Shown one piece after another: positions 16,741-38,354 of a stretch of 64,000 bases of DNA (positions are counted from its first letter, which is position 1; each line of letters starts with the position of its first letter). The translations under genes were made by a program, and so were the position numbers. Source of the DNA: a virus; the IMG/VR virus record IMGVR_UViG_3300002026_000009, positions 1-64,000 of that record; one strand, 5' to 3'. A model generated the notes under the pieces. The model was not told the origin of the DNA, ran no database searches, and worked only from the letters and a program-made list of their open reading frames with translations.

Positions 16741-17020
16741 GTTGACGGAAACGTATTCTGGACGGCGGGGCAGTACCGCCCAGGTCCACCATAAAACACA
16801 CTACGGCACTGTCTTAGTTCAGTGTGGTTCGATTAAGTAGTGTGTTTTATATTGGGCCTGACACAGTTTCGACAGGGTAAAGAGTACTGATATGGACAAC
16901 TCGTCAGGAGTAGACGTTAAAAGCAAACTAAACTAACCGCAAACGACAGCGAGTTCGCCCTAGCCGCTTAAGGCTTGGCTGAGGTTTGACCCGTTACCTT
17001 ATTAACAAAAACGGGTCACT
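16741..17020 (+). ncRNA. ssrA: circularly permuted (two-piece) tmRNA gene
   Basis: The acceptor piece ends ...GGAC-GGCGG-GGCAGTA-CCGCC-CAGGTCC-A-CCA at 16793. A 12-bp hairpin spacer occupies 16795-16850. The coding piece starts GGGCCTGACACAGTTTCGACAGGG at 16853. The acceptor stem GGGCCTG/CAGGTCC has a G3:U70 pair. The tag ORF GCA AAC GAC AGC GAG TTC GCC CTA GCC GCT TAA (16939-16971) encodes ANDSEFALAA. The outer boundaries are uncertain. Confidence 0.75.
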
Positions 17021-17030
17021 AATTTCTCTC

Positions 17031-17059
17031 TTGAAGACGCTGGTTATCTTTGATATAAT
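17031..17059 (+). promoter_or_regulatory. promoter TTGAAG-N17-TATAAT
   Basis: Hexamers read directly. Confidence 0.55.
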
Positions 17060-22487: not shown

Positions 22488-23213
22488 ATGAATAGTGGAA
22501 TTTACTCCCTTAAATGGGATTAGCAAGGTTTAATATATGTTGGCCTAAGCCAGGATATAGATGGCAGATTGAAAAGTCATATAAATATGTTACTAGGTAA
22601 CAGGCATACTAACTATAAAGTACAGAATGCTTTTAATAAATTTGGGCATCCAAGTACAGAAGTACTTGAATTATGTGACATATAGAAGCTAGCAGAAAGA
22701 GAAGTTTATTGGTGTAATAAACTAAATGCGCTAGGACCAAATGGGTTATGTATTGTTGAGCCTGGAATAGTAGGTTTTGGTACAAATAGCAACTATACTA
22801 AATATAGTAAATATCAAATACTAAAAGTATTTTCCTTGTTATACAATGGTCAAAAAAGTTAGACAGAAATAGAATAGATGACCAAAGTATAGTCTAGGAC
22901 TGTAAAAGATATTTCACGTGGTAATTAGCACTTATGGTTAAGGGAACAGTATCCCCAAAAATATGATTTAATGCTAAAAGCTGATAGAGCCGCTATAGGT
23001 ATTCAATAGAAATCCAGAACATTAAAAGGATACTTACTAACTCCATAGCTAGATGTCGTGCCTATACACAGTTATGCAGATTTTGTACGAAATATACATC
23101 CAGAACTGGATCAAAAGTAGATAAATACTATGGTCTAGGGTTTGGCAAGAGTTTTACGTGGCGAACGTAAAACTTATAAAGGGTATAGTAGAGCAGATGG
23201 AGTAGTCGCATAA
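22488..23213 (+). CDS. GIY-YIG homing endonuclease, 10 in-frame TAG
   Basis: 242 codons (MNSGIYSLKWD-TAG-QGLIYVGLSQDIDGRLKSH...YKGYSRADGVVA) with ten TAG and no TAA or TGA until 23211. The 3' end overlaps the suppressor tRNA. Confidence 0.6.
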
Positions 23214-23285
23214 CGGTATTGCAGGGGTCTCTAAAACCCCCGGTCAGAAATGGCCTTCTGAGTTCGACCCTCAGCTACTCCGCCA
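23199..23285 (+). tRNA. suppressor tRNA, anticodon CTA (reads TAG); Ser-type architecture
   Basis: Reads as GGAGTAG TC GCATAACGGTATTGC A GGGGT CTCTAAA ACCCC CGGTCAGAAATGGCCTT CTGAG TTCGACC CTCAG CTACTCC G CCA. It has a 3-bp D stem, a 17-nt variable arm, G73, and G2:C71, A3:U70 and C11:G24 pairs. Its arm lengths and variable arm match tRNA-Ser(GCT) at 27406. Confidence 0.85.
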
Positions 23286-24253: not shown

Positions 24254-24592
24254 ATGGAAAGACCAGACTGCTGGAAGATTGTTAAAATAACTGCTCCAAC
24301 CGGAGAAATACACTATCGTGTAGCAATGGGCTGGTACGGTGGTTATTTAGGTAGTGATAGCTGGCAGATGAATAGTGGAATTGCTAGCCATTACTTTACA
24401 AACGAGGATAAAGATGTTGTTTTTGTTGGCGTTAGTGGTAGCGAATATATATGTTCACTACACAATGAAGGTTTAAACGGCTACGTTTCAAGCGTGGTTG
24501 TTGGTTATAGTAAAAAACTAGCCAATATAGGTGCTAGTATTGAAGAAGTATTTTTTAGCGAATACTGCGTGTGTAGTTCAATGGTAGAATAA
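24254..24592 (+). CDS. hypothetical protein
   Basis: ORF track entry. The 3' end overlaps tRNA-Gly by 26 nt. Confidence 0.5.
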   Translation: MERPDCWKIVKITAPTGEIHYRVAMGWYGGYLGSDSWQMNSGIASHYFTNEDKDVVFVGVSGSEYICSLHNEGLNGYVSSVVVGYSKKLANIGASIEEVFFSEYCVCSSMVE

Positions 24593-24640
24593 GACGTTGC
24601 CAACGTTTGGACGAGAGTTCGATCCTCTCCACCCGCACCA
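24567..24640 (+). tRNA. tRNA-Gly (GCC)
   Basis: Acceptor GCGTGTG/CACCCGC (one U:C mismatch), anticodon loop TTGCCAA, CCA. Confidence 0.8.
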
Positions 24641-24641
24641 T

Positions 24642-24716
24642 GCTGGATAGACCGAGTGGCGAGGTACCGTCTTGATAAGGCGGCTGTAGATGGATCGTAA
24701 CCATCATCCAGTACCA
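24642..24716 (+). tRNA. tRNA-Ile (GAT)
   Basis: Acceptor GCTGGAT/ATCCAGT, anticodon arm CCGTC-TTGATAA-GGCGG, T arm GATGG-ATCGTAA-CCATC, CCA. Confidence 0.75.
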
Positions 24717-24725
24717 AAATAAAAT

Positions 24726-24804
24726 ACCGTATAGGCCGACAAGGTGTTAGGCAAATGGCTGTTAACCATTCTCAAGCTGGGTTCGATTCCTAGATACGGT
24801 GCCA
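24726..24804 (+). tRNA. tRNA-Asn (GTT)
   Basis: Acceptor ACCGTAT/ATACGGT, anticodon arm AATGG-CTGTTAA-CCATT, G73, CCA. Confidence 0.8.
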
Positions 24805-24811
24805 ATTAAAT

Positions 24812-24888
24812 CCCGATATAGCTCAAGTGGACTAGAGCGTGCGTGTGCACTGCGCAAGATGGTGGTTCGAATCCGCCTTGAGGGGCCA
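24812..24888 (+). tRNA. tRNA-like gene with defective acceptor stem (anticodon position GCA); possible pseudo-tRNA
   Basis: The D arm (GCTC/GAGC) and T arm (GGTGG-TTCGAAT-CCGCC) are perfect and the gene ends GCCA. Only 4 of 7 acceptor pairs form, and the loop GTGCACT is atypical. Confidence 0.4.
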
Positions 24889-25027
24889 AGAAAAAAGTAT
24901 CGTATAGGGAACATTGCCGAATACTTCACCCTGGACTGGGCGTCCATCGGAACCTATAGACCTTCTGCAGGGGGTTTATAACAGTGTTTATTTAACATTG
25001 TTATAAGTCAGGCAAAGAAATTTGCAC

Positions 25028-25056
25028 TTGCCTTGTTTCCTAAAACCCTGTATAAT
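25028..25056 (+). promoter_or_regulatory. promoter TTGCCT-N17-TATAAT
   Basis: Hexamers read directly. Feeds the 560-nt non-coding leader of rsr. Confidence 0.55.
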
Positions 25057-25069
25057 TATATCTTTAACA

Positions 25070-25276
25070 GCGACTAAAACAACACACTGTTGTAGCGAAA
25101 GTAAACTGCTTGGCGGCAGTTAAAATCAGTTACTTCAAACTATGATGGTCTGGGCTTGTAACCGGACGCCCCTCATATACGGTTAGTATATAATCCCTAA
25201 TGTAAGGCATGTTGTAGGTTAATGAACATGCTGAGCACTGATGCGGATATTCTCAATAGTGTGTTGCTTTAGTTGT
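25070..25276 (+). ncRNA. Y-RNA-like module 1 (long terminal stem)
   Basis: Positions 25070-25088 pair with 25258-25276 over 19 positions with one A:C mismatch. The interior contains CAGTTACTTC (25127) and the hairpins 25177-25191 and 25207-25232. Confidence 0.45.
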
Positions 25277-25283
25277 AGTGTTT

Positions 25284-25371
25284 AAATCGGTTACTTCTTT
25301 TTATTTGTTCTAAAAACGACTGGGTGTTCGATTCCCCGGAGGCCGCTGGTGCATGGGCCAATATCCGATTT
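25284..25371 (+). ncRNA. Y-RNA-like module 2
   Basis: Closing stem AAATCGG/CCGATTT, then TTACTTC, then a degenerate T-arm (GGGTGTTCGATTCCCC) and a D-arm-like GGCC-GCTGGTGCAT-GGCC. Confidence 0.4.
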
Positions 25372-25482
25372 TCCTGTTCTCAACTTTCTTCTTTGGTGTC
25401 TCGACCGTTACGTTCTCGTAATATAAAGACTTGATTTTAGGTAAACCGTCTCCCTAAAGCCAACCCTATTTTAGTAGTGTTA

Positions 25483-25586
25483 GAAACAGTTACTTCACTT
25501 TTAATGAAGAGGTCGGTGGTTCGAGTCCACCCAGGTTGGTCTCTAGCCTGTAGCTCAGTTGGATAGAGCGCTAAAATCTCTGTTTC
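25483..25586 (+). ncRNA. Y-RNA-like module 3 with permuted tRNA-like domain (YrlA-type)
   Basis: Closing stem GAAACAG/CTGTTTC. Order of elements: hairpin CTTCA-CTTTTAA-TGAAG, AGGTC, T arm GGTGG-TTCGAGT-CCACC, acceptor 3' strand CAGGTTG, cap GTCTC, acceptor 5' strand TAGCCTG, TA, D arm GCTC-AGTTGGATA-GAGC. Confidence 0.6.
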
Positions 25587-25621
25587 GTCTTGTTCTCTAA
25601 ATTCTTTTTTTAAAGGAAACT

Positions 25622-26932
25622 ATGTCTTCGATCAATCGCGTATCCCGTGTAGTTAATAAAACTTTCGAGGGTGCTGCTGCAAAACTAATTACTCCTGAAG
25701 CTAAGCTGAATCGTGTGGTTATGGCTTCCATGCTGTGGGAAGGACAATTTTACATCGACGGCCAAAAGTCGGCTGATGTAATTAAAGACCTTGTTGCTAA
25801 AGTCGACCCTAAGGTGGTAGAGTCTATTGCAATCAAGGCACGCGAAGCCATGAAACTTCGCCATGTGCCACTGTTCATTACCCGTGAACTGGCACGTATC
25901 GGCAAACTCTCACACGAGGTGCTAACTCGTGTTATCCAGCGTCCTGACGAATTGGGTGAGTTTGTATCAATGTATTGGATGGATAAGAAACAACCGCTGT
26001 CCAATCAAGTTAAACGTGGTCTAGCTAACGCTTTCCACAAGTTTAACGAATACCAGTTTGCTAAGTGGAATAAGTCTAGCGCAGCTGTGAAGCTCCGTGA
26101 TGTACTATTCCTAACCCACGCTAAACCTCGTACAGAGGGTGAGGCCGATCTCTTCAAGCGTATCGCTGATGAGAAACTGGAAACTCCAGATACTTGGGAA
26201 ACCGAGCTGTCTGGTGGTGCGGATAAAGGTGCTACCTTTACTCGCCTTATGAAGGAAAATAAGTTGGGTGCACTGGCATTCCTTCGTAACCTGCGGAATA
26301 TGGTACAGGCTGGAGTTGACGAAAGCCTTATCCGGGAATACGCTCGTGGTGTGAATACTGACCGTGTTCTTCCATTCCGCTTCCTTGCAGCAGCCCGCAT
26401 CGTTCCTCAATTCGAGGACATGCTGGAAAGCATGATGCTTCGTAGCCTTGAAAGCCACGAAAAGCTGCCAGGAAAAACCGTTCTGCTAATCGACGTTAGT
26501 GGCTCGATGTTCGGTACGAAAGTATCTGAAAAGAGCGATCTTGATCGTTTTGACGCAGCAGCTGCACTTGCTATTCTAGCTCGTGAAATCTGTGAAGAAG
26601 TAGAAATCTACTCCTTCTCGTACAACGCAGTTCGCGTTCCAGCCCGTCGTGGCATGGCACTGGTAGAGGCTATTCGCAACAGCCAAAACCACGGTGGTAC
26701 AGCAACAGGTAAAGCTGTTCGTAGCATTAACGCTAATGTTGAGTATACTCGCTGTATCATCTTCACCGATGAACAGTCGCATGACGTAGTACCTAACCCA
26801 ACAGGTATTGGTTATATCATCAACGTAGCTGCCTACGAAAACGGTATCGGTAACTCTAACTGGACTACCATTAGTGGTATGTCTGAAGCCGTTATCGACT
26901 ATATCCAGTTGTCTGAAAAGACAGTGGATTAA
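25622..26932 (+). CDS. rsr: Ro60-related protein (Rsr): TROVE + vWA domains
   Basis: 436 aa. The N-terminal part is TROVE-like. The vWA MIDAS motif LLIDVSGSM is present. AAAGGAAA RBS, TAA stop. Confidence 0.75.
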   Translation: MSSINRVSRVVNKTFEGAAAKLITPEAKLNRVVMASMLWEGQFYIDGQKSADVIKDLVAKVDPKVVESIAIKAREAMKLRHVPLFITRELARIGKLSHEVLTRVIQRPDELGEFVSMYWMDKKQPLSNQVKRGLANAFHKFNEYQFAKWNKSSAAVKLRDVLFLTHAKPRTEGEADLFKRIADEKLETPDTWETELSGGADKGATFTRLMKENKLGALAFLRNLRNMVQAGVDESLIREYARGVNTDRVLPFRFLAAARIVPQFEDMLESMMLRSLESHEKLPGKTVLLIDVSGSMFGTKVSEKSDLDRFDAAAALAILAREICEEVEIYSFSYNAVRVPARRGMALVEAIRNSQNHGGTATGKAVRSINANVEYTRCIIFTDEQSHDVVPNPTGIGYIINVAAYENGIGNSNWTTISGMSEAVIDYIQLSEKTVD

Positions 26933-27075
26933 AGACTAGAATTGATCCTTCTAGTCTACAACGCGTGATGCTCCAGGAACCACTTGCCTATGGTCGAGAG
27001 CTAGTAACCACACGGTAGTCAGTCCGGTTAAATAATGTTGGCTCTAAGCTTCGGCTTAGAAAAGTGCTTAGTGTA

Positions 27076-27116
27076 GTAACAGTTACTTCATTTTTGGTAT
27101 AATAAAAGCCTGTTAC
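27076..27116 (+). ncRNA. Y-RNA-like module 4 (stem-loop only)
   Basis: GTAACAG/CTGTTAC stem enclosing TTACTTC... Confidence 0.3.
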
Positions 27117-27272
27117 GCTTTTTCTAGCTCTTTTCTAAGCCATAGCGTATATTTTGATTACATCACTAACCACACTTCTAGTACCGCACAGTTGGGTGCA
27201 TGCAGGGTTCGAATCCCAGGGCAAAAACATCAAAATAGTTTTTCTTGGCTAATTTTTACAATCCTTAGCGTA

Positions 27273-27381
27273 TAAACAGTTACTTCTTAACCTCAATAGC
27301 CGTACCTGGGTTCGATTCCCAGCATCCCTAAACTGGGGTGTAATCTAATGGTAGGATTGGCTAACTAAAAAAGCCTGTTTA
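27273..27381 (+). ncRNA. Y-RNA-like module 5 with permuted tRNA-like domain (YrlA-type)
   Basis: Closing stem TAAACAG/CTGTTTA, then TTACTTC. T arm CTGGG-TTCGATT-CCCAG, acceptor CATCCCT-AAAC-TGGGGTG capped by a tetraloop, then TA and the D arm ATCT-AATGGTA-GGAT. Confidence 0.6.
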
Positions 27382-27405
27382 ATTTTTCTAGGATTACTTT
27401 ATATT

Positions 27406-27492
27406 GGAAGATGTGTTGCAAGGTGCGACATCGGTTTGCTAAACCGCCGTTCAGAAATGGGCTGATAGGTTCGATTCCTATATCTTCCGCCA
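27406..27492 (+). tRNA. tRNA-Ser (GCT)
   Basis: Class II. Acceptor GGAAGAT/ATCTTCC, anticodon loop TTGCTAA, variable arm CGTTCAGAAATGGGCTG, G73, CCA. Confidence 0.85.
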
Positions 27493-27505
27493 ACTAATAA
27501 ATATT

Positions 27506-28035: not shown

Positions 28036-28127
28036 GGAAAGTAGTGCAGCGGGGCTGGTCCTGCGACGAGCCTTGAAAACTCGGTTCTCAGAAATGGGAT
28101 GGGGTTCGACTCCTCTGCTTTCCTCCA
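28036..28127 (+). tRNA. tRNA-Ser (TGA)
   Basis: Class II. Acceptor GGAAAGT/GCTTTCC, anticodon loop CTTGAAA, variable arm containing CAGAAATGG. The D loop is long and position 73 is U. Confidence 0.7.
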
Positions 28128-28166
28128 ATTTTTAACCAGCGCCCACCGCGCAAAATTTAGCACATT

Positions 28167-31528: not shown

Positions 31529-31800
31529 GCACTCATAGCTCAATGGTTAGAGCAGTGAACTTAAAATAATGGGTCGCTATATTGGAAACGATATAGTAGT
31601 CAGGTGTAAATTCGGTGAACGCTTTAATATGCCAACGCCGAGCGAAGCCCGAAAGGGAACGTGTAGAGACTATAATCACCCACCTAAGGCTTGCTAAGGT
31701 GAAGGCATAGTCCAGACCACAAACATTAATACTGGTAGTGAAAACTATAGTGGTAAGCATAATTCATTGGTTACAGGTTCGAGTCCTGTTGAGTGCACCA
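31529..31800 (+). tRNA. tRNA (CAT) interrupted by a group I intron
   Basis: Exons 31529-31561 and 31758-31800 join into a 76-nt cloverleaf: GCACTCA..GTGAA-CT|CATAA-TTCAT..TGAGTGC-A-CCA. Splice points are approximate, within 1-2 nt. Confidence 0.75.
31562..31757 (+). mobile_element. group I intron (~196 nt, no ORF) in tRNA anticodon loop
   Basis: The 5' exon ends in U and the intron ends in G. P7-type elements GTAGAGACTATAA and AAGGCATAGTCC are present. Confidence 0.65.
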
Positions 31801-31814
31801 TATAAAAAATAATC

Positions 31815-34412: not shown

Positions 34413-34772
34413 ATGGCATGGACCGACGAACAAAAAGCACAAGCTAAACAAATGTACTTGGATGGCAATCCCACTCCAGAAAATTCAACCGAGCTGGTCA
34501 AGCAAATTGCTGAAGACCTCGACCAGTCTGCTAACGGTGTACGTATGCTACTGACCCAAGCAGGCATTTACGTCAAGAAAGACGACAAGGCTAAGCCTAC
34601 TACAGGCACGGCTAAAAAAGAAGGTGATGCTCCAAAGCGCGTTAGCAAAGAATCTCAAATCGCTGAGCTGAAAGCTGCAATCGAAGCCCGTGGTGCTGAA
34701 GTTGATGCTGACATTCTCGATAAACTTACAGGTAAAGCTGCCCAATACTTTGTAAAAGTTCTGGCTGCTTAA
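34413..34772 (+). CDS. GcrA-like HTH family protein (paralogue 4)
   Basis: MAWTDEQKAQAKQMYLDG...IAEDLDQSANGVRMLLTQAGIY. Confidence 0.65.
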   Translation: MAWTDEQKAQAKQMYLDGNPTPENSTELVKQIAEDLDQSANGVRMLLTQAGIYVKKDDKAKPTTGTAKKEGDAPKRVSKESQIAELKAAIEARGAEVDADILDKLTGKAAQYFVKVLAA

Positions 34773-34775
34773 TTT

Positions 34776-34800
34776 AAGGCAGCTTTAGGCTGCCTTTTTC
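34776..34800 (+). terminator. intrinsic terminator AAGGCAGC...GCTGCCTT + T run
   Basis: Read directly. Confidence 0.65.
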
Positions 34801-34815
34801 ATTTTAAGGACTAAT

Positions 34816-35436
34816 ATGGCAACACGCAAACCAAAGGATGACGAACTACTTGATGATGCTCATTTGGAGCGTGTAATCGCCCTGCTTGAGCCGAAAGAAG
34901 AAGATGCCAAGCCTATCACTAAGAAAGATGCTTGCCAGATTCTTAACATTGCCTACAACACTACAAGGCTAGGACAGTTAATTGATCGCTACAAAGAAAA
35001 GAAGTCTCGTGAGACAAAAAGACGAGCGGAGCTACGCGGCAAGCCCCTTTCTTCAGAAGAAATTGCTTATATCATTGGAGAATACCTGGAAGGAGTTTCC
35101 GTCGAAGAAATTTCTCGCTCGACGTACCGTTCGCGCGAGAAAGTCGCTCAGGCCTTGGTTGAAGCTAACGTACCGGTCAGACCTGCTAGTTACGATTACT
35201 TCAGACCGGAACTTATCCCTGACGATGCAACACGCGAAAGGTTTAAGGTTGGTGAAGTTGTCTGGTCTGCTCAGTATGATTCAGCAGCAAAAATTGAAAA
35301 GGAAGATACGCACTCAACATGGGGGTTCATTTATAGAGTGTGGCTTCTTAGCGAGAAGTGGAGGCAGTACGCGCATGTCCCAGCCTGCGAGCTTGCCAGT
35401 TTAGAACATTTGAGAAAATTAGGAGTACGAGTATAA
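34816..35436 (+). CDS. hypothetical protein (206 aa)
   Basis: ORF track entry. Confidence 0.65.
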   Translation: MATRKPKDDELLDDAHLERVIALLEPKEEDAKPITKKDACQILNIAYNTTRLGQLIDRYKEKKSRETKRRAELRGKPLSSEEIAYIIGEYLEGVSVEEISRSTYRSREKVAQALVEANVPVRPASYDYFRPELIPDDATRERFKVGEVVWSAQYDSAAKIEKEDTHSTWGFIYRVWLLSEKWRQYAHVPACELASLEHLRKLGVRV

Positions 35437-36058: not shown

Positions 36059-36403
36059 ATGAACAACTTTCTTAAAAATCTTACGTTCTATCAAACCAAT
36101 CAACGTGCTCTGGTTCAGGAACCTTTTTCATTTGAAGATAATTTTACAAATGTAAGGTATGTGGAAGAGCGTGTTGTGTACGAACTAGCAGCTAAAATTG
36201 GGGATCGAGTAGTAATTAGTGAGAGTATGGCTTCTGAAGCTAAGAATCTTATTAAACACAAACTCATGCGATCACTTAATGAGCACGTACATGGCGGGTA
36301 TAGACTACCACTATTAGATTTGTTTAGACACTTAGTCAAACGCGGTGACCAAGAAGGTATTAAGCAATTAGAAAAGATTATGGACGAAATGTTTAAAGTA
36401 TGA
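36059..36403 (+). CDS. hypothetical protein
   Basis: ORF 36047..36403. ATG at 36059. Confidence 0.55.
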   Translation: MNNFLKNLTFYQTNQRALVQEPFSFEDNFTNVRYVEERVVYELAAKIGDRVVISESMASEAKNLIKHKLMRSLNEHVHGGYRLPLLDLFRHLVKRGDQEGIKQLEKIMDEMFKV

Positions 36404-37362
36404 ACAAACAACAAATTTCCAACTATCTTGATCGGTGCAGCGATGCGTATTATGCGGGTAATCCTATTCTTGATGACGCTACCTTTGACAGTCTCGCTGA
36501 CCTTGTTGGTTACAACAGAGTGGGCGCTACGGTCACTAGCGGGAAGGTTCGACACCTCTATCAAATGTACTCGCTTCAAAAGCATTACGAAGATGAAGGT
36601 GCCCACCCTCTAAAAGGCTATACTGGTGGTATCTCTACCAGTCCTAAACTGGATGGTGCTGCAATCTCTATTCTGTATGTTGATGGTGCACTAACTCGCG
36701 TAACCACTCGTGGTGATGGGGTTGAGGGTCAGGACATTACAGATAAGTTCCTGACTACAAAGTCACTGATTCCCCACAATATTCCTAGTATCGGTACATT
36801 CCAGATTACTGGTGAGATTGTAGCCCCGAATCATATTGAGAATGCTCGTAACTACGCTGCTGGTGCTCTCAACTTGAAAGATGTTGCAGAGTTCAATACT
36901 CGCGCAATCGAGTTCTTCGCTTATGGTGTTCAGCCATACATTAGCGAGAGTTTTGTTACTGACATGCAGCAACTCAAGGCATGGGGATTCAATACAGTTT
37001 TCGAATCGGAAATTGATAAGATTTACCCTTGCGATGGTGTTGTACATCGTATCAACAGTAACAAAGTATTTGTTGAGTGGGGTTACACAGGTAAGCATCC
37101 CAAAGCTGCCTATGCTCTTAAAGTTCGGCAGCAAGCTGTTGAAACTAAGATTATTGGTGTTGAGTGGCAAGTCGGTAAGACAGGTCGCGTTTCACCAGTA
37201 GCTATTCTAGAACCTGTTATGATTGGTGACGCTCAAGTTAGCCGCGCTACTCTTAACAATCCTGGGTTTATCGAAATGCTTGGCATTGAGATCGGAGATA
37301 CAGTAGCCATTATTCGTAGTGGCGAGATCATTCCTAGAATCCTTCACAAGGTTGATGCATGA
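36400..37362 (+). CDS. NAD-dependent DNA ligase, N-terminal part (adenylation + OB)
   Basis: KxDG motif SPKLDGAAISI, and TRGDGVEGQDIT. Confidence 0.8.
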   Translation: MNKQQISNYLDRCSDAYYAGNPILDDATFDSLADLVGYNRVGATVTSGKVRHLYQMYSLQKHYEDEGAHPLKGYTGGISTSPKLDGAAISILYVDGALTRVTTRGDGVEGQDITDKFLTTKSLIPHNIPSIGTFQITGEIVAPNHIENARNYAAGALNLKDVAEFNTRAIEFFAYGVQPYISESFVTDMQQLKAWGFNTVFESEIDKIYPCDGVVHRINSNKVFVEWGYTGKHPKAAYALKVRQQAVETKIIGVEWQVGKTGRVSPVAILEPVMIGDAQVSRATLNNPGFIEMLGIEIGDTVAIIRSGEIIPRILHKVDA

Positions 37363-37542: not shown

Positions 37543-37571
37543 TTGCTGTTGGTGTGGGTTTCGTGTATAAT
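37543..37571 (+). promoter_or_regulatory. promoter TTGCTG-N17-TATAAT with AAATTTAGAC upstream box
   Basis: The same AAATTTAGACTTG head recurs at 47353 and 56767. Confidence 0.55.
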
Positions 37572-37598
37572 ACATATATTCAGTCGATAAACACATTT

Positions 37599-38354
37599 AT
37601 GAAAATTGACATTCCTACACATTGCCCATGTTGCAGTGAGCCACTCGAATTTACTAACGATCAGTTATTTTGTGTTAACTCTAGTTGCCCAGCACAGCTT
37701 TACAAGCGGGTTGAGCATTTTACAAAAACTCTTGGCATTAAAGGATTTGGCTCTAAAACTATCGAAAAACTAGCCCTAGATTCAATCCCCGAGATTTATT
37801 ATTTAGAATTTGAAGATGTAGCCGCTGCCCTGGGCAGTGAGCGTATGGCAGAAAAATTATTACTCGAAATTGAGGCTAGCCGAAATGCCTCACTAGACAA
37901 GGTACTGGCTGCATTTTCAATCCCTCTTATCGGACAAACGCTGTCAACACGGCTTTGTCAAGTAGTCAATAACATTGACGAAATTACAGCCGAAGCTTGC
38001 AATTCCGCAGGTTTAGGTGCTAAAGCTACAGCCAACTTGATCGGTTGGTTGAATACAGAATTTCTAGAGGTCAGAGAGTTTTTACCCTTTGACTTTAAGA
38101 CTTCTGGAACTGCCAGCAACACAGATAACGGTAAAAGTATCTGTATTACTGGTAAACTCGTTACCTTTAAAACCAAAGCAGAAGCCACAACAGCCCTAAC
38201 AACGGCTGGATACAAAGTAGTAGAGTCAGTAACAAAACAAACAGACATGCTAGTGGACGAAGGCGATAAAGGTAGCGCAAAACGTAAACGTGCCGAAGAA
38301 CTCGGTATTCCTATTATTACAAATCTCAAAGATTTTTTGAAAGAAAACAAATGA
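37599..38354 (+). CDS. NAD-dependent DNA ligase, C-terminal part (Zn finger, HhH, BRCT)
   Basis: CPCCSEPLEF...CVNSSCPAQ, HhH-like repeats, and a C-terminal BRCT-like ITGKL... Confidence 0.75.
   Translation: MKIDIPTHCPCCSEPLEFTNDQLFCVNSSCPAQLYKRVEHFTKTLGIKGFGSKTIEKLALDSIPEIYYLEFEDVAAALGSERMAEKLLLEIEASRNASLDKVLAAFSIPLIGQTLSTRLCQVVNNIDEITAEACNSAGLGAKATANLIGWLNTEFLEVREFLPFDFKTSGTASNTDNGKSICITGKLVTFKTKAEATTALTTAGYKVVESVTKQTDMLVDEGDKGSAKRKRAEELGIPIITNLKDFLKENK

What the first reader, a model, noticed from the sequence alone, without database searches (positions are those of the whole stretch)
24950..27500. Ro60 (Rsr) orthologue embedded in the tRNA cluster and flanked by five Y-RNA-like modules
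CDS 25622..26932 has a TROVE-like N-terminal part and a vWA MIDAS motif (DVSGSM).

It is preceded by a 560-nt promoter-fed non-coding leader and followed by 470 nt of non-coding sequence.

The flanks contain five copies of the motif CAGTTACTTC (one variant reads CGGTTACTTC), at 25127, 25287, 25487, 27080 and 27277:
- Each copy forms the 3' end of the 5' strand of a closing helix whose partner strand lies 30-110 nt downstream. The pairs are ATCAG/CTGAT, AAATCGG/CCGATTT, GAAACAG/CTGTTTC, GTAACAG/CTGTTAC and TAAACAG/CTGTTTA.
- Module 1 is additionally enclosed by a 19-position helix (25070-25088 with 25258-25276) that has a single A:C mismatch.

In bacteria, Y RNA genes sit next to rsr, and Y RNAs are defined by a long stem formed by their two ends. 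This locus fits that pattern. It is unusual in having several copies inside a lytic phage tRNA island.
Basis: partly seen in the sequence, partly recalled or inferred. Interest (0 to 1): 0.85.

Follow-up and report, generated by a model that had tools for sequence, protein, structure and literature searches.

The report
Phage Ro60 gene with six Y RNAs
A T5-like phage carries a gene for the ring-shaped RNA-binding protein Ro60, flanked by six small structured "Y RNA" genes that share one conserved docking motif; this pairing is already known in bacteria and some phages, but the array here is unusually large and varied.

Summary
CDS 25622-26932 is a TROVE+vWA protein. Its closest solved relative is Thermus phage phiRo60, and a family profile also reaches Xenopus and human Ro60 and Deinococcus Rsr. 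The motif CRGTTACTTC occurs exactly five times in 64 kb, all on the + strand and all in the gene's flanks; the variant starts at 25288, not 25287.

Each copy ends a 5-8 bp helix inside a larger conserved architecture: outer helix, U-bulge, RG:CY pairs, internal loop (UGwwa / nnyuUGUU), inner helix, UUACUUC, variable core, AAAAnn.

About 70 related loci from phage genomes and metagenomes carry the same modules around their TROVE gene. A strict detector found 130 on the gene strand and none opposite. Four module classes show strong compensatory covariation.

The cores differ: two full tRNA-like (YrlA-like) cores, two partial, one minimal hairpin, and one large core that is not tRNA-like.

Rfam's YrlA model detects only module 3, below its threshold.

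Ro60 with adjacent Y RNAs is already documented in phages (Chen 2014; Hu 2025). This is therefore a new variant of a known system, not a new kind. RNA expression, protein binding and function remain untested.

The parts
25028..25056 (+). Sigma-70-like promoter (TTGCCT-17-TATAAT). It is the likely start of the Y RNA / rsr transcription unit.
   Evidence: 10 of 12 matches. A TTGnnn-17-TATAAT site lies at the same place, just before the class-E outer stem, in L008, L009/L010, L012 and L013 (sequences, read by eye). This is a consensus match only; transcription is not shown.
25070..25276 (+). Module 1 (class E): a large Y-like RNA whose core is not tRNA-like. Outer helix 25070-25092 / 25254-25276. 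U-bulge 25093. AG:CU pairs 25094-95 / 25252-53. Inserted hairpin at about 25104-25121. Inner helix ATCAG 25125-29 / CTGAT 25238-42. Motif at 25127-25136.
   Evidence: Orthologues occur in L022 (74% protein identity locus), L040, L042, L008, L012 and L017. In seven of the nine class-E loci the duplex folds gave a long outer helix of different sequence; in L013 and L009 my 3' anchor was misplaced. Over all nine loci, own-partner duplexes average -19.0 kcal/mol against -7.2 for cross-locus pairs. This is the weakest module by the strict rules: the inner helix is only 5 bp and the 5' loop is rearranged.
25271..25385 (+). Module 2 (class B). Outer helix AGTTG / CAACT. Inner helix AAATCGG 25284-90 / CCGATTT 25365-71. 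The core holds an anticodon-arm-like hairpin, a T arm (with a bulged U) and a GCUGGUGCA hairpin. There is no D arm. Its first 6 nt overlap the 3' outer strand of module 1.
   Evidence: model R1, 29.2 bits, E = 2e-5. Alignment A3 of 14 orthologues: 88.5% of cells paired against 39-57% in slid controls, and 22 of 29 pairs have changes on both sides.
25470..25601 (+). Module 3 (class A), YrlA-like. Outer helix TTTAG / CTAAA. Inner helix GAAACAG 25483-89 / CTGTTTC 25580-86. The core holds a 5-bp hairpin with loop CUUUUAA, linker AGGUC, a T arm, a closed 8-bp acceptor-like hairpin and a D arm. It ends 20 nt before the rsr start codon.
   Evidence: Rfam YrlA RF02553 scores 40.9 bits, E = 5.9e-7, below the gathering score of 69. 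Model R1 scores 39.2 bits, E = 7e-7. Alignment A2 of 11 orthologues: 97% paired against 39-52% slid, and 18 of 25 pairs have changes on both sides. The anticodon-like hairpin covaries.
25622..26932 (+). rsr-like gene: a phage Ro60 homologue (TROVE ring domain plus vWA domain with MIDAS), 436 aa.
   Evidence: phiRo60 9KOP/9L5Y, E = 7e-23 over residues 12-428. (profile of 15 phage proteins): phiRo60 1e-49, Xenopus Ro60 1YVP 2.7e-12, human RO60 8e-12, D. radiodurans Rsr 2NVO 2e-10. Homologues occur in 98 phage records.
26933..26958 (+). 9-bp hairpin (AGACUAGAA / UUCUAGUCU) immediately after the stop codon. It has no U-tract. It may be a processing site or a stabilising hairpin.
   Evidence: Minimum-free-energy fold. 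The terminator scan did not call it. Conservation was not examined.
27053..27141 (+). Module 4 ('mini' class). A roughly 15-bp outer stem (GGCUUAGAAAAGUGCU / AGCUCUUUUCUAAGCC), an internal loop, the inner helix GTAACAG 27076-82 / CTGTTAC 27110-16, and a 27-nt apical loop.
   Evidence: Alignment A1 of 11 orthologues lying just downstream of the TROVE gene: 95.6% paired against 35-46% slid, and 16 of 23 pairs have changes on both sides. Model R1 scores 78.6 bits here and finds this class in most of 69 loci.
27138..27250 (+). Motif variant TGATTACATC at 27155. Outer helix AGCCA / TGGCT. Inner helix TATTTTGA 27150-57 / TCAAAATA 27230-37. The core holds a D-like hairpin followed by a T arm (GGTTCGAATCC at 27206). 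It shares 4 nt with module 4.
   Evidence: Against L010_946 and L035_105 the core is about 85% identical, while the 8-bp closing helix is fully compensated (TAATATAG / CTATATTA). The D-like stem also covaries (GCAC/GUGC against GCAG/CUGC). Only three sequences are available.
27260..27395 (+). Module 5 (class D), with the canonical YrlA topology. Outer helix AATCCT / AGGATT. Inner helix TAAACAG 27273-79 / CTGTTTA 27375-81. An anticodon-stem-like helix (AGCC / GGCU) leads into a T arm, a closed acceptor-like hairpin and a D arm (UAAUGGUA loop).
   Evidence: Alignment A4 of 6 sequences: 89.9% paired against 38-55% slid, and 14 of 20 pairs have changes on both sides. The class-D member in Xanthomonas phage MET23-P3 (L002 1308-1403) is the best Rfam YrlA match seen here, at 52.3 bits. 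Module 5 itself has no Rfam hit.
27406..27492 (+). tRNA-Ser(GCU), the first ordinary tRNA after the array. Given as context: the array sits inside the tRNA island.
   Evidence: ARAGORN. tRNAs at 24567-24804 lie just upstream of the array.

Best explanation
This is a phage Ro60-Y RNA locus.

Shown by the sequence and comparisons:
- A Ro60/TROVE-vWA gene is flanked on its own strand by six structured RNA modules, three upstream and three downstream.
- All six share one architecture. The 5' and 3' ends pair in an outer helix. Next comes a bulged U, two covarying RG:CY pairs, a conserved asymmetric internal loop (5' UGwwa, 3' nnyuUGUU) and a 5-8 bp inner helix ending in CRG. The conserved single-stranded UUACUUC then opens a variable core, and AAAAnn closes it.
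- The cores fall into six classes, and each class is orthologous across related phages.

Inferred:
- The invariant stem, loop and 5'-strand motif form the docking site for the phage Ro60. In known Y RNAs, Ro60 reads mainly the conserved 5' strand of the terminal stem.
- The variable cores are effector or adaptor modules. They comprise two full tRNA mimics, two partial ones, one bare hairpin and one large core that is not tRNA-like.
- The unit is probably transcribed from the promoter at 25028-25056 as one precursor together with rsr and the downstream tRNAs. Host RNases would then cut it. RNase III is a candidate at the 15-24 bp outer stems, and tRNA-processing enzymes at the tRNA-like cores.
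- By analogy with D. radiodurans Rsr-Yrn1-PNPase and Thermus phage phiRo60-Yrl-PNPase, the resulting particles would gate Ro60 and tether it to host RNA-metabolism enzymes early in infection.
For: Protein. TROVE lies above the Pfam cut-off and the MIDAS signature is complete. The protein matches solved phage Ro60 along its full length. The family profile reaches Xenopus and human Ro60 and D. radiodurans Rsr.

RNA in the window. The motif is confined to the gene flanks and to one strand. All closing helices form in the minimum-free-energy folds.

Comparative evidence.
- The motif and architecture recur around the TROVE gene in phage records and in 63 environmental loci.
- A strict detector finds 130 modules on the gene strand and 0 on the opposite strand in 323 kb.
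- A model built from one class (R1) gives 98 of 99 hits on the gene strand.
- Covariation is strong in four classes. Compensated helices are also seen in the other two.

Reverse test. I searched IMG/VR with the motif alone. In the 15 loci that hold a TROVE gene, all 20 motif copies were on the gene's strand and 16 of 20 had the full architecture. Among 66 copies without a TROVE gene in the held DNA, which are mostly chance matches, 9 had it.

Known-family links. Rfam YrlA gives sub-threshold hits to module 3 and to modules next to the TROVE genes of Xanthomonas, Caulobacter and Brevundimonas phages.

Literature. YrlA RNAs lie next to Ro60 in 254 bacteria and 22 phages, with several per locus in some (PMC4201824). 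Ro60 reads mainly the conserved 5' strand (bioRxiv 10.1101/312249). Phage phiRo60 binds two upstream Yrl RNAs and host PNPase (PMC12135203).
Against: - There is no expression, processing or binding evidence for this phage or for any member of this clade.
- Five of the six modules have no Rfam match. Module 3 is well below the YrlA gathering score (40.9 against 69 bits).
- The conserved motif (CRGUUACUUC) differs from the CGAAUGC / 'CGAA' motif of described bacterial and phiLo Y RNAs, so binding is by analogy only.
- Thermodynamic z-scores of single modules are modest (-0.05 to -2.1).
- Adjacent modules share nucleotides in their outer helices (25271-25276 and 27138-27141), so not all outer helices can form at once on one precursor.
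- Module 1 has only a 5-bp inner helix and a rearranged 5' loop.
- The window contains no PNPase, RtcB or RNA ligase partner among the 20 larger ORFs scanned.
Confidence: 0.85

Rival explanations
1. The modules are cis-acting parts of one long mRNA / tRNA precursor rather than free-standing Y RNAs. They would serve as RNase III or RNase E processing punctuation, stabilising hairpins, or an autoregulatory leader through which Ro60 controls its own translation. Module 3 ends only about 20 nt before the start codon.
For: All modules lie on the same strand as rsr and the tRNAs, and no intrinsic terminator is predicted between them. Only one strong promoter lies upstream. Module 3 abuts the ribosome-binding site in the window and in its orthologues. 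The outer stems of 15-24 bp resemble RNase III substrates. Adjacent modules overlap, which suggests folding or cutting in sequence.
Against: Co-transcription followed by processing is also how the Salmonella yrlA and yrlB RNAs are made, to my knowledge, so this does not exclude free Y RNAs. Six distinct conserved cores, including full tRNA mimics, are far more than processing signals would need. Modules downstream of the gene cannot regulate its translation initiation. The two explanations are not mutually exclusive.
Confidence: 0.1
2. The modules are decayed or rearranged tRNA genes (pseudogenes or fused tandem tRNAs) left over in the tRNA island. Their closing helices would be fortuitous.
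For: Four cores contain T-loop consensus sequences and D-arm-like or anticodon-arm-like elements. The class A order (anticodon arm, AGGUC, T arm, fused acceptor, D arm) is what a fusion across two tandem tRNA genes would give. The Rfam tRNA model scores part of module 3 at 27.5 bits.
Against: Descent from tRNA is likely, but decay is not. The non-tRNA parts (outer helix, internal loop, inner helix, motif) are the most conserved and covary strongly. Modules 1 and 4 have no tRNA-like part. The modules track the TROVE gene, not tRNA clusters in general. No motif copy occurs elsewhere in the window's 26-tRNA island.
Confidence: 0.02
3. CAGTTACTTC and its surroundings act at the DNA level, as a phage-specific promoter or operator, or as a small mobile repeat (MITE- or REP-like) that has spread through intergenic DNA.
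For: A/T-rich hexamers resembling a -10 element follow some copies. The clearest is TATAAT at 27098-27103, which together with GTAACA 16 bp upstream (27076-27081) scores 10 of 12 as a promoter.
Against: The TATAAT in the module 4 loop is absent from all orthologous mini-class loops. Strand bias is absolute at 130 to 0. Base pairing, rather than sequence, is conserved in the helices. The six window copies are not near-identical repeats of one another; each is closest to its own class in other phages.
Confidence: 0.02

Closest known systems
Salmonella Typhimurium rsr-yrlB-yrlA (and the YrlA family, Rfam RF02553)
   Same: A Ro60 homologue has tRNA-like Y RNAs encoded beside it on the same strand. 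The terminal stem carries a conserved 5'-strand motif. The core has a T arm, a closed acceptor-like hairpin and a D arm (modules 3 and 5). A shorter partner RNA that is not tRNA-like accompanies them (compare module 4 with YrlB).
   Different: - There are six modules here instead of two.
- The motif is CRGUUACUUC instead of CGAAUGC.
- Only module 3 matches the model, at 40.9 bits against a gathering score of 69.
- In module 3 the stem leading into the core is replaced by long linkers plus a closed 5-bp / 7-nt hairpin with an anticodon-loop signature. S. Typhimurium YrlA 'lacks the anticodon loop' (10.1101/312249).
- No rtcBA genes were seen among the ORFs scanned.
- The protein is about 100 aa shorter.
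Thermus phage phiLo phiRo60 with Yrl1 and Yrl2 (PMC12135203; PDB 9KOP, 9L5Y)
   Same: This is the closest solved protein (E = 7e-23 alone, 1e-49 with the profile). It is a phage Ro60 with Y-like RNAs encoded just upstream. It is shown to bind those RNAs and host PNPase.
   Different: phiLo has two RNAs, picked out by a CGAA motif in a stem-bulge-stem. They were proposed from single-sequence folds. Here there are six, in six conserved classes, on both sides of the gene, with a different motif and with support from covariation.
Deinococcus radiodurans Rsr-Yrn1-PNPase (the RYPER complex)
   Same: This is the functional model. The Y RNA stem binds Ro60, and the other end tethers an exoribonuclease and gates the Ro60 cavity. 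Several Y RNAs exist per genome.
   Different: Protein similarity is distant and detectable only with a profile (2NVO, 2e-10, vWA region only). Yrn1 has a different arrangement of tRNA-like elements (PMC4201824). No phage PNPase gene was seen.
Phage YrlA RNAs listed by Chen et al. 2014 (22 phages) and the TROVE genes of jumbo and crAss-like phages
   Same: These are the same kind of locus. Several of these loci lie beside tRNA genes.
   Different: The published list could not be read, because no supplements are held. I therefore cannot say which of these classes were already reported. The mini class and classes B, C and E are not captured by the Rfam model.

Membership tests
Ro60 / Rsr (TROVE-vWA ring proteins) | TROVE domain | tested here: met
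   Pfam PF05731 scores 49.3 bits against a cut-off of 23, although only residues 185-275 align. Full-length alignment to phiRo60 covers residues 12-428.
Ro60 / Rsr (TROVE-vWA ring proteins) | C-terminal vWA domain with a MIDAS motif (DxSxS...T...D) | tested here: met
   DVSGS, GGTATG and FTDEQ are present in the translation. D291, S293, S295 and D383 are invariant and T360 is at least 90% conserved in 15 phage homologues. VWA_2 (26.4 bits, cut-off 27) and vWA_Ro60 (21.6 bits, cut-off 27.7) fall just under their cut-offs.
Ro60 / Rsr (TROVE-vWA ring proteins) | Homology to Ro60 proteins of known ring structure | tested here: met
   The profile of 15 phage proteins matches phiRo60 at 1e-49, Xenopus Ro60 1YVP at 2.7e-12 (profile positions 10-391), human RO60 at 8e-12 and Rsr 2NVO at 2e-10. 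No structure was predicted, so the ring shape is inferred.
Ro60 / Rsr (TROVE-vWA ring proteins) | Binds Y RNA on the outer surface and RNA 3' ends in the central cavity | not testable with these tools
   This needs gel-shift assays, immunoprecipitation or a structure.
Y RNA (general definition) | Long stem formed by pairing of the 5' and 3' ends | tested here: met
   All six modules have an outer plus an inner helix. Covariation: 95.6%, 97%, 88.5% and 89.9% of cells paired, against 35-57% in slid controls.
Y RNA (general definition) | Conserved Ro60-binding element in that stem, with the 5' strand conserved | tested here: inconclusive
   A strongly conserved 5' element (U-RG-UGwwa-helix-CRG-UUACUUC) and a 3' element (AAAAnn-helix-nnyuUGUUCY) exist. 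Their sequences differ from the published CGAA-type site, and binding is untested.
Y RNA (general definition) | Encoded next to the Ro60 gene (bacterial and phage Y RNAs) | tested here: met
   All modules lie within about 560 nt of the CDS on the same strand. The same holds in about 70 loci, at 130 to 0 by strand. The reverse search from motif to gene agrees.
Y RNA (general definition) | Discrete stable RNA of about 80-130 nt bound by Ro60 in vivo | not testable with these tools
   Predicted sizes are 89-136 nt for modules 2-5 and about 210 nt for module 1. There are no expression data.
YrlA (Rfam RF02553) | Score at or above the family's gathering threshold (69 bits) | tested here: not met
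   Module 3 scores 40.9 bits (E = 5.9e-7). The other five modules have no hit at E up to 10.
YrlA (Rfam RF02553) | tRNA-like core made of a T arm, a closed acceptor-like hairpin and a D arm | tested here: met
   Met for modules 3 and 5. Partly met for module 2 (T arm and hairpin, no D arm) and module 4b (D-like hairpin and T arm). Absent in modules 1 and 4.
YrlA (Rfam RF02553) | The Ro-binding stem continues into the core as the 'anticodon stem', with no anticodon loop | tested here: inconclusive
   Module 5 has such a helix (AGCC / GGCU), and it covaries. Module 3 and class B instead carry a closed 5-6 bp hairpin with a 7-nt loop, CU-NNU-AA in most members. This hairpin could also be read as a long variable arm, which has been reported for many YrlAs (10.1101/312249).
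tRNA genes | Called by ARAGORN, or by Rfam tRNA at or above 29 bits, with an open acceptor stem | tested here: not met
   ARAGORN calls none of the modules. Rfam tRNA gives only a partial match to module 3, at 27.5 bits. The acceptor-like stems are closed by 3-6 nt loops and have no CCA.

The most novel reading that the evidence does not exclude
The array may be a set of interchangeable adaptor RNAs, the largest repertoire I know of for one Ro60 (own knowledge, not a survey). All would dock through one clade-specific code (CRGUUACUUC plus the UG / UUGUU loop). Each would present a different bait.

Classes A and B would display an authentic anticodon stem-loop. The loop is CU-NNU-AA; here it is CUUUUAA, identical to a tRNA-Lys(UUU) loop. 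Elsewhere the loops are Asn-, Arg-, Ile- and Ser-like.

On this reading the phage Ro60 particle would capture or decoy host enzymes that target tRNA, such as anticodon nucleases or enzymes that modify the anticodon loop. That would tie the system functionally to the tRNA island in which it sits.
Probability: 0.12. Interest if true: 0.8.

Novelty: new variant of a known kind. Interest (0 to 1): 0.5.

Why it matters
Ro60 and Y RNAs are conserved from bacteria to humans, where Ro60 is a major lupus autoantigen. What determines Y RNA recognition, and what the variable modules do, is still poorly understood. Phage versions have barely been studied.

This clade offers a compact natural experiment. 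One small Ro60 is paired with up to six co-evolving Y RNA classes. These share a sharply defined candidate docking site and carry very different cores. The covariation-supported secondary structures are ready for binding and structural work.

The result also shows that the current Rfam YrlA model misses most phage Y RNAs. Long 'non-coding' stretches next to TROVE genes in phage genomes, including crAss-like and jumbo phages, are therefore probably unannotated Y RNA genes.

Tried and rejected
- Rfam at gathering thresholds finds nothing in the flanks. Rfam at E up to 10 finds only module 3.
- Megablast of the locus, and of 20 kb of the replication region, against 50,697 phage records finds no close relative. 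The only hits are 34-111 nt matches to the module 3 region in Xanthomonas/Xylella phages.
- The supplementary tables of Chen 2014, which list the phages, are not held. The 2020 Annual Review on bacterial Ro60 is not held either.
- Single-sequence folding z-scores are too weak to decide anything on their own.
I therefore relied on features that were not used for selection: the 3' motif, the outer helices, strand bias and covariation.
- Motif-only scanning of IMG/VR returns mostly chance hits, because 15 specified bases are too few for a database of that size. It is informative only after filtering for the full architecture.
- The spacers 25386-25469, 26959-27052 and 24886-25027 were folded in search of further modules, and none was convincing. 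A motif-like CCGTTACGTTC in the spacer between modules 2 and 3 (about 25406-25416) has no partner helix.
- Column-wise covariation of the class A anticodon-like hairpin and of the class E outer helix was not possible on the MAFFT alignments because of register shifts. I used per-sequence scripts instead. In one search my 3' anchor was misplaced for L013 and L009.
- I did not run structure prediction or the large protein searches. The PDB profile hits already settled family membership.

Full report
**1. The observation**

The CDS 25622-26932 (+, 436 aa) is real, and both flanks are free of ORFs longer than 36 aa.

The protein has a Pfam TROVE domain (49.3 bits, cut-off 23) and near-threshold vWA matches. 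It also has a complete MIDAS signature: DVSGS, GGT and TDE.

A sigma-70-like site, TTGCCT-17-TATAAT, lies at 25028-25056.

The exact pattern CRGTTACTTC occurs five times in the 64-kb window, at 25127, 25288, 25487, 27080 and 27277. All five are on the + strand and all lie in the flanks of this gene. One-mismatch hits elsewhere are at the chance level.

The five quoted helix pairs and the 19-position helix (25070-88 with 25258-76; 18 pairs including two G:U, and one A:C) are all present. All form in the minimum-free-energy folds.

The region sits inside a tRNA island of 26 genes. tRNAs end at 24804 upstream, and tRNA-Ser starts at 27406 downstream.

**2. What the modules look like**

Lining up the copies shows that the 10-mer is only the centre of a larger conserved design. 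From the outside in, the design reads:
- an outer helix of 5-24 bp;
- a bulged U;
- two pairs, RG with CY, that covary (AG:CU, GG:CC, GU:AC);
- an asymmetric internal loop (5' UGwwa, 3' nnyuUGUU);
- an inner helix of 5-8 bp whose last three pairs are the CRG of the motif;
- single-stranded UUACUUC, which opens the core;
- a variable core;
- AAAAnn, followed by the 3' strand of the inner helix.

Four cores contain a T-loop consensus that no tRNA finder called. These lie at 25325, 25518, 27206 and 27309.

Adjacent modules overlap by a few nucleotides. Modules 1 and 2 share 25271-25276. Modules 4 and 4b share 27138-27141.

**3. Comparative evidence**

The protein has homologues in 98 phage records. 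These include Ralstonia RsoM2USA at 58% identity, Brevundimonas and Caulobacter jumbo phages and small Xanthomonas phages at 46-49%, and crAss-like phages at 40%. I fetched 6 annotated loci, 15 IMG/VR loci and 48 metagenome loci. The nearest is 74-75% identical in protein.

The motif and its partner helix recur just upstream or downstream of the TROVE gene in most of these loci.

A strict detector requires the 5' loop motif, the core motif, a partner helix and the 3' loop motif. It finds 130 modules on the gene strand and none on the opposite strand in 323 kb.

I built a covariance model from 11 'mini' modules (R1). It recovers that class in most loci, and 98 of its 99 hits are on the gene strand. 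It also detects window modules 3 (39.2 bits) and 2 (29.2 bits), which were not in its seed.

In the reverse test, I searched IMG/VR with the motif alone. In the 15 loci that hold a TROVE gene, all 20 motif copies were on the gene's strand and 16 of 20 had the full architecture. Only 9 of 66 copies had it where no TROVE gene lay in the held DNA. Most of those 66 are the chance matches expected for 15 specified bases.

**4. Six orthologous classes, each with covariation**

The window's six modules are not copies of each other. Each is closest to one class found in other phages.

| Class | Window module | Sequences | Cells paired | Slid controls | Pairs changed on both sides |
|---|---|---|---|---|---|
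| Mini | 4 | 11 | 95.6% | 35-46% | 16 of 23 |
| A | 3 | 11 | 97% | 39-52% | 18 of 25 |
| B | 2 | 14 | 88.5% | 39-57% | 22 of 29 |
| D | 5 | 6 | 89.9% | 38-55% | 14 of 20 |

For the mini class, none of 500 shuffles reached the observed values.

Class C (module 4b) has only three sequences. The core is about 85% identical among them, while the 8-bp closing helix is completely compensated.

Class E (module 1) is the first module after the promoter in many loci. In seven of the nine loci folded, its long outer helix has a different sequence each time. Own-partner duplexes average -19 kcal/mol, against -7 for cross-locus pairs. In the window the value is -29.9 kcal/mol over about 24 bp.

Module 1 and its nearest orthologue (L022) share a derived insertion between the 5' loop motif and a shortened 5-bp inner helix.

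**5. The cores**

- Module 5 has the canonical YrlA topology. A short helix leads into a T arm, a closed acceptor-like hairpin and a D arm.
- Module 3 has the same three arms, plus a closed 5-bp hairpin with a 7-nt loop (CUUUUAA). The hairpin is joined to the T arm by AGGUC, a typical class-I variable loop.
- This hairpin covaries across orthologues (CUUCA/UGAAG, UUCGU/ACGAG, UUCGA/UCGAG, UUCCA/UGGAG). Among 33 non-redundant cases, 20 loops read CU-NNU-AA, and one further loop reads CUUGUAC.
- The order of elements is what a fusion across two tandem tRNA genes would give. The hairpin can also be read as the long variable arm described for many YrlAs (10.1101/312249).
- Module 2 has the hairpin, a T arm and a conserved GCUGGUGCA hairpin, but no D arm.
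- Module 4b has a D-like hairpin and a T arm.
- Module 4 is a bare stem with a 27-nt loop.
- Module 1 has a core of about 100 nt that is not tRNA-like.

**6. Comparison with known systems**

Rfam's YrlA model matches module 3 at 40.9 bits (E = 6e-7; gathering score 69) and none of the others. It gives similar sub-threshold hits next to the TROVE genes of Xanthomonas, Caulobacter and Brevundimonas phages.

The protein's best solved relative is Thermus phage phiLo phiRo60. A profile of 15 phage homologues also reaches Xenopus and human Ro60 and D. radiodurans Rsr.

The literature already covers this kind of system:
- Chen et al. 2014 reported YrlA-like RNAs within 4 kb of Ro60 in 254 bacteria and 22 phages, and listed all of them where a locus had several (PMC4201824).
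- Wang et al. note that Ro60 reads mainly the conserved 5' strand of the stem, and that YrlA lacks an anticodon loop (10.1101/312249).
- Hu et al. 2025 showed that phiRo60 binds two upstream Y-like RNAs and host PNPase, and dampens PNPase activity (PMC12135203).
- Iyer et al. 2021 noted TROVE proteins in jumbo phages (PMC7824862).
- The crAss001 TROVE gene is transcribed early (review PMC10136315).

**7. Mechanism**

Shown: the anatomy, its conservation, its strand specificity and its linkage to the gene.

Inferred: the invariant stem, loop and motif form the Ro60 docking site. The variable cores act as effector or adaptor modules. The unit is transcribed from 25028-25056 together with rsr and the downstream tRNAs, and is then cut by host RNases. 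RNase III is an obvious candidate for the 15-24 bp outer stems. The resulting particles would redirect or restrain host RNA decay or repair enzymes, with PNPase as the precedent.

Nothing here tests expression, binding or function.

**8. Rival explanations**

- Cis-acting processing or autoregulatory elements remain plausible as an additional role, especially for module 3, which abuts the ribosome-binding site.
- Decayed tRNA genes are excluded as a full explanation, because the non-tRNA parts are the best conserved and they covary.
- A DNA-level promoter, operator or mobile repeat is excluded by the absolute strand bias, by the conservation of pairing rather than sequence, and by the class-wise orthology. 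The TATAAT inside the module 4 loop is not conserved in orthologues.

**9. Host phage**

The replication genes in the window indicate a distant T5-like virulent phage. They comprise a split NAD ligase, a DnaB-like helicase, a primase, PolA, SbcCD, RNR and a flap nuclease. The PolA relatives are Vibrio phages at about 51% identity, including pVp-1, which I recognise as T5-like.

**10. Verdict**

This is a phage Ro60-Y RNA locus, which is a known kind of system.

It differs from described examples in four ways:
- its docking motif;
- the number of Y RNAs (six);
- the set of six conserved classes, most of which the current Rfam model cannot see;
- the anticodon-arm-like hairpin of classes A and B.

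I rate it a new variant of a known kind, of moderate interest.

Noticed in passing
window 16683-17046: The phage encodes a two-piece (circularly permuted) tmRNA. Rfam tmRNA_permuted scores 123 bits and beta_tmRNA 108 bits. It lies upstream of the tRNA island.
   Followed up: no
window 23199-23285: ARAGORN labels an 87-nt tRNA with anticodon CUA as 'tRNA-Pyl'. It looks like an amber-suppressor tRNA with a long variable arm and an encoded CCA end. The ORF stops I checked were TAA or TGA.
   Followed up: partly
window 28036-28128; 31738-31803; 24812-24885: Three further tRNA-like elements that ARAGORN did not call. The first is a class-II-like tRNA with loop CUUGAAA (anticodon UGA, Ser-like) and an encoded CCA. 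The second is a shorter T-arm-containing element ending in ...GCACCA. The third is a 74-nt element that Rfam tRNA scores at 32.3 bits but with three mismatched acceptor pairs. None carries the Y RNA motif.
   Followed up: partly
window 25271-25276 and 27138-27141: Adjacent Y modules share nucleotides. The 3' outer strand of module 1 overlaps the 5' outer strand of module 2, and the same holds for modules 4 and 4b. Their outer helices therefore cannot all form on one precursor. The same tight packing is seen in related loci, for example L024, L026, L027 and L060.
   Followed up: partly
window 25497-25513 (module 3 hairpin); related loci L002, L007-L009, L012, L015, L017, L035, L046, L058: The hairpin after UUACUUC in classes A and B has a 7-nt loop with a tRNA anticodon-loop signature. 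In 20 of 33 non-redundant cases it reads CU-NNU-AA. GUU is commonest, and UCU, CUU, GCU, UAU, AUU, UGU and UUU also occur. All are anticodons ending in U, that is, for ANN codons. In the window the loop is CUUUUAA, as in tRNA-Lys(UUU). In window module 2 it has drifted to UUUGUUC.
   Followed up: partly
window 27076-27103: A good sigma-70-like match (GTAACA-16-TATAAT, with a TG extension) lies inside the apical loop of module 4. It is not conserved in the orthologous mini-class RNAs, but it could drive modules 4b and 5 and tRNA-Ser in this phage.
   Followed up: partly
window 24975-25010 and 27044-27059: A 13-bp hairpin (UUAUAACAGUGUU / AACAUUGUUAUAA) lies directly upstream of the promoter. 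A 6-bp UUCG-tetraloop hairpin (CUAAGC-UUCG-GCUUAG) competes with the 5' outer strand of module 4. Their roles are unknown; they may be terminators, processing sites or alternative structures.
   Followed up: no
window 42027-43745 / 43983-44888 and 36400-37362 / 37554-38354: DNA polymerase A appears as two ORFs in the same frame. They are separated by 237 nt that contain several stop codons and a TTGACG...TATAAT site. The NAD-dependent ligase is likewise split, into adenylation/OB and BRCT pieces. These may be introns, inserted elements or genuinely split genes, as in some T5-like phages.
   Followed up: partly
loci L074, L080, L086, L092, L126, L137, L146 (IMG/VR): These loci contain complete Y-type modules (motif, partner helix and 3' loop motif), but no TROVE homologue was found in the DNA held for them. 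In some the module lies near the end of the held stretch, so the gene may simply be out of range. I did not check whether stand-alone modules exist.
   Followed up: no
L002 (Xanthomonas phage MET23-P3, record positions 34571-35273) and L003 / L004 (CcrColossus, Gurke): In published phage genomes, the 700-1000 nt 'empty' stretch upstream of the TROVE gene holds several unannotated Y RNA modules. MET23-P3 has four exact-motif modules plus one variant-motif module. In L004 (Gurke) a sub-threshold YrlA hit at 2336-2434 overlaps the annotated tRNA-Ser at 2311-2385.
   Followed up: partly
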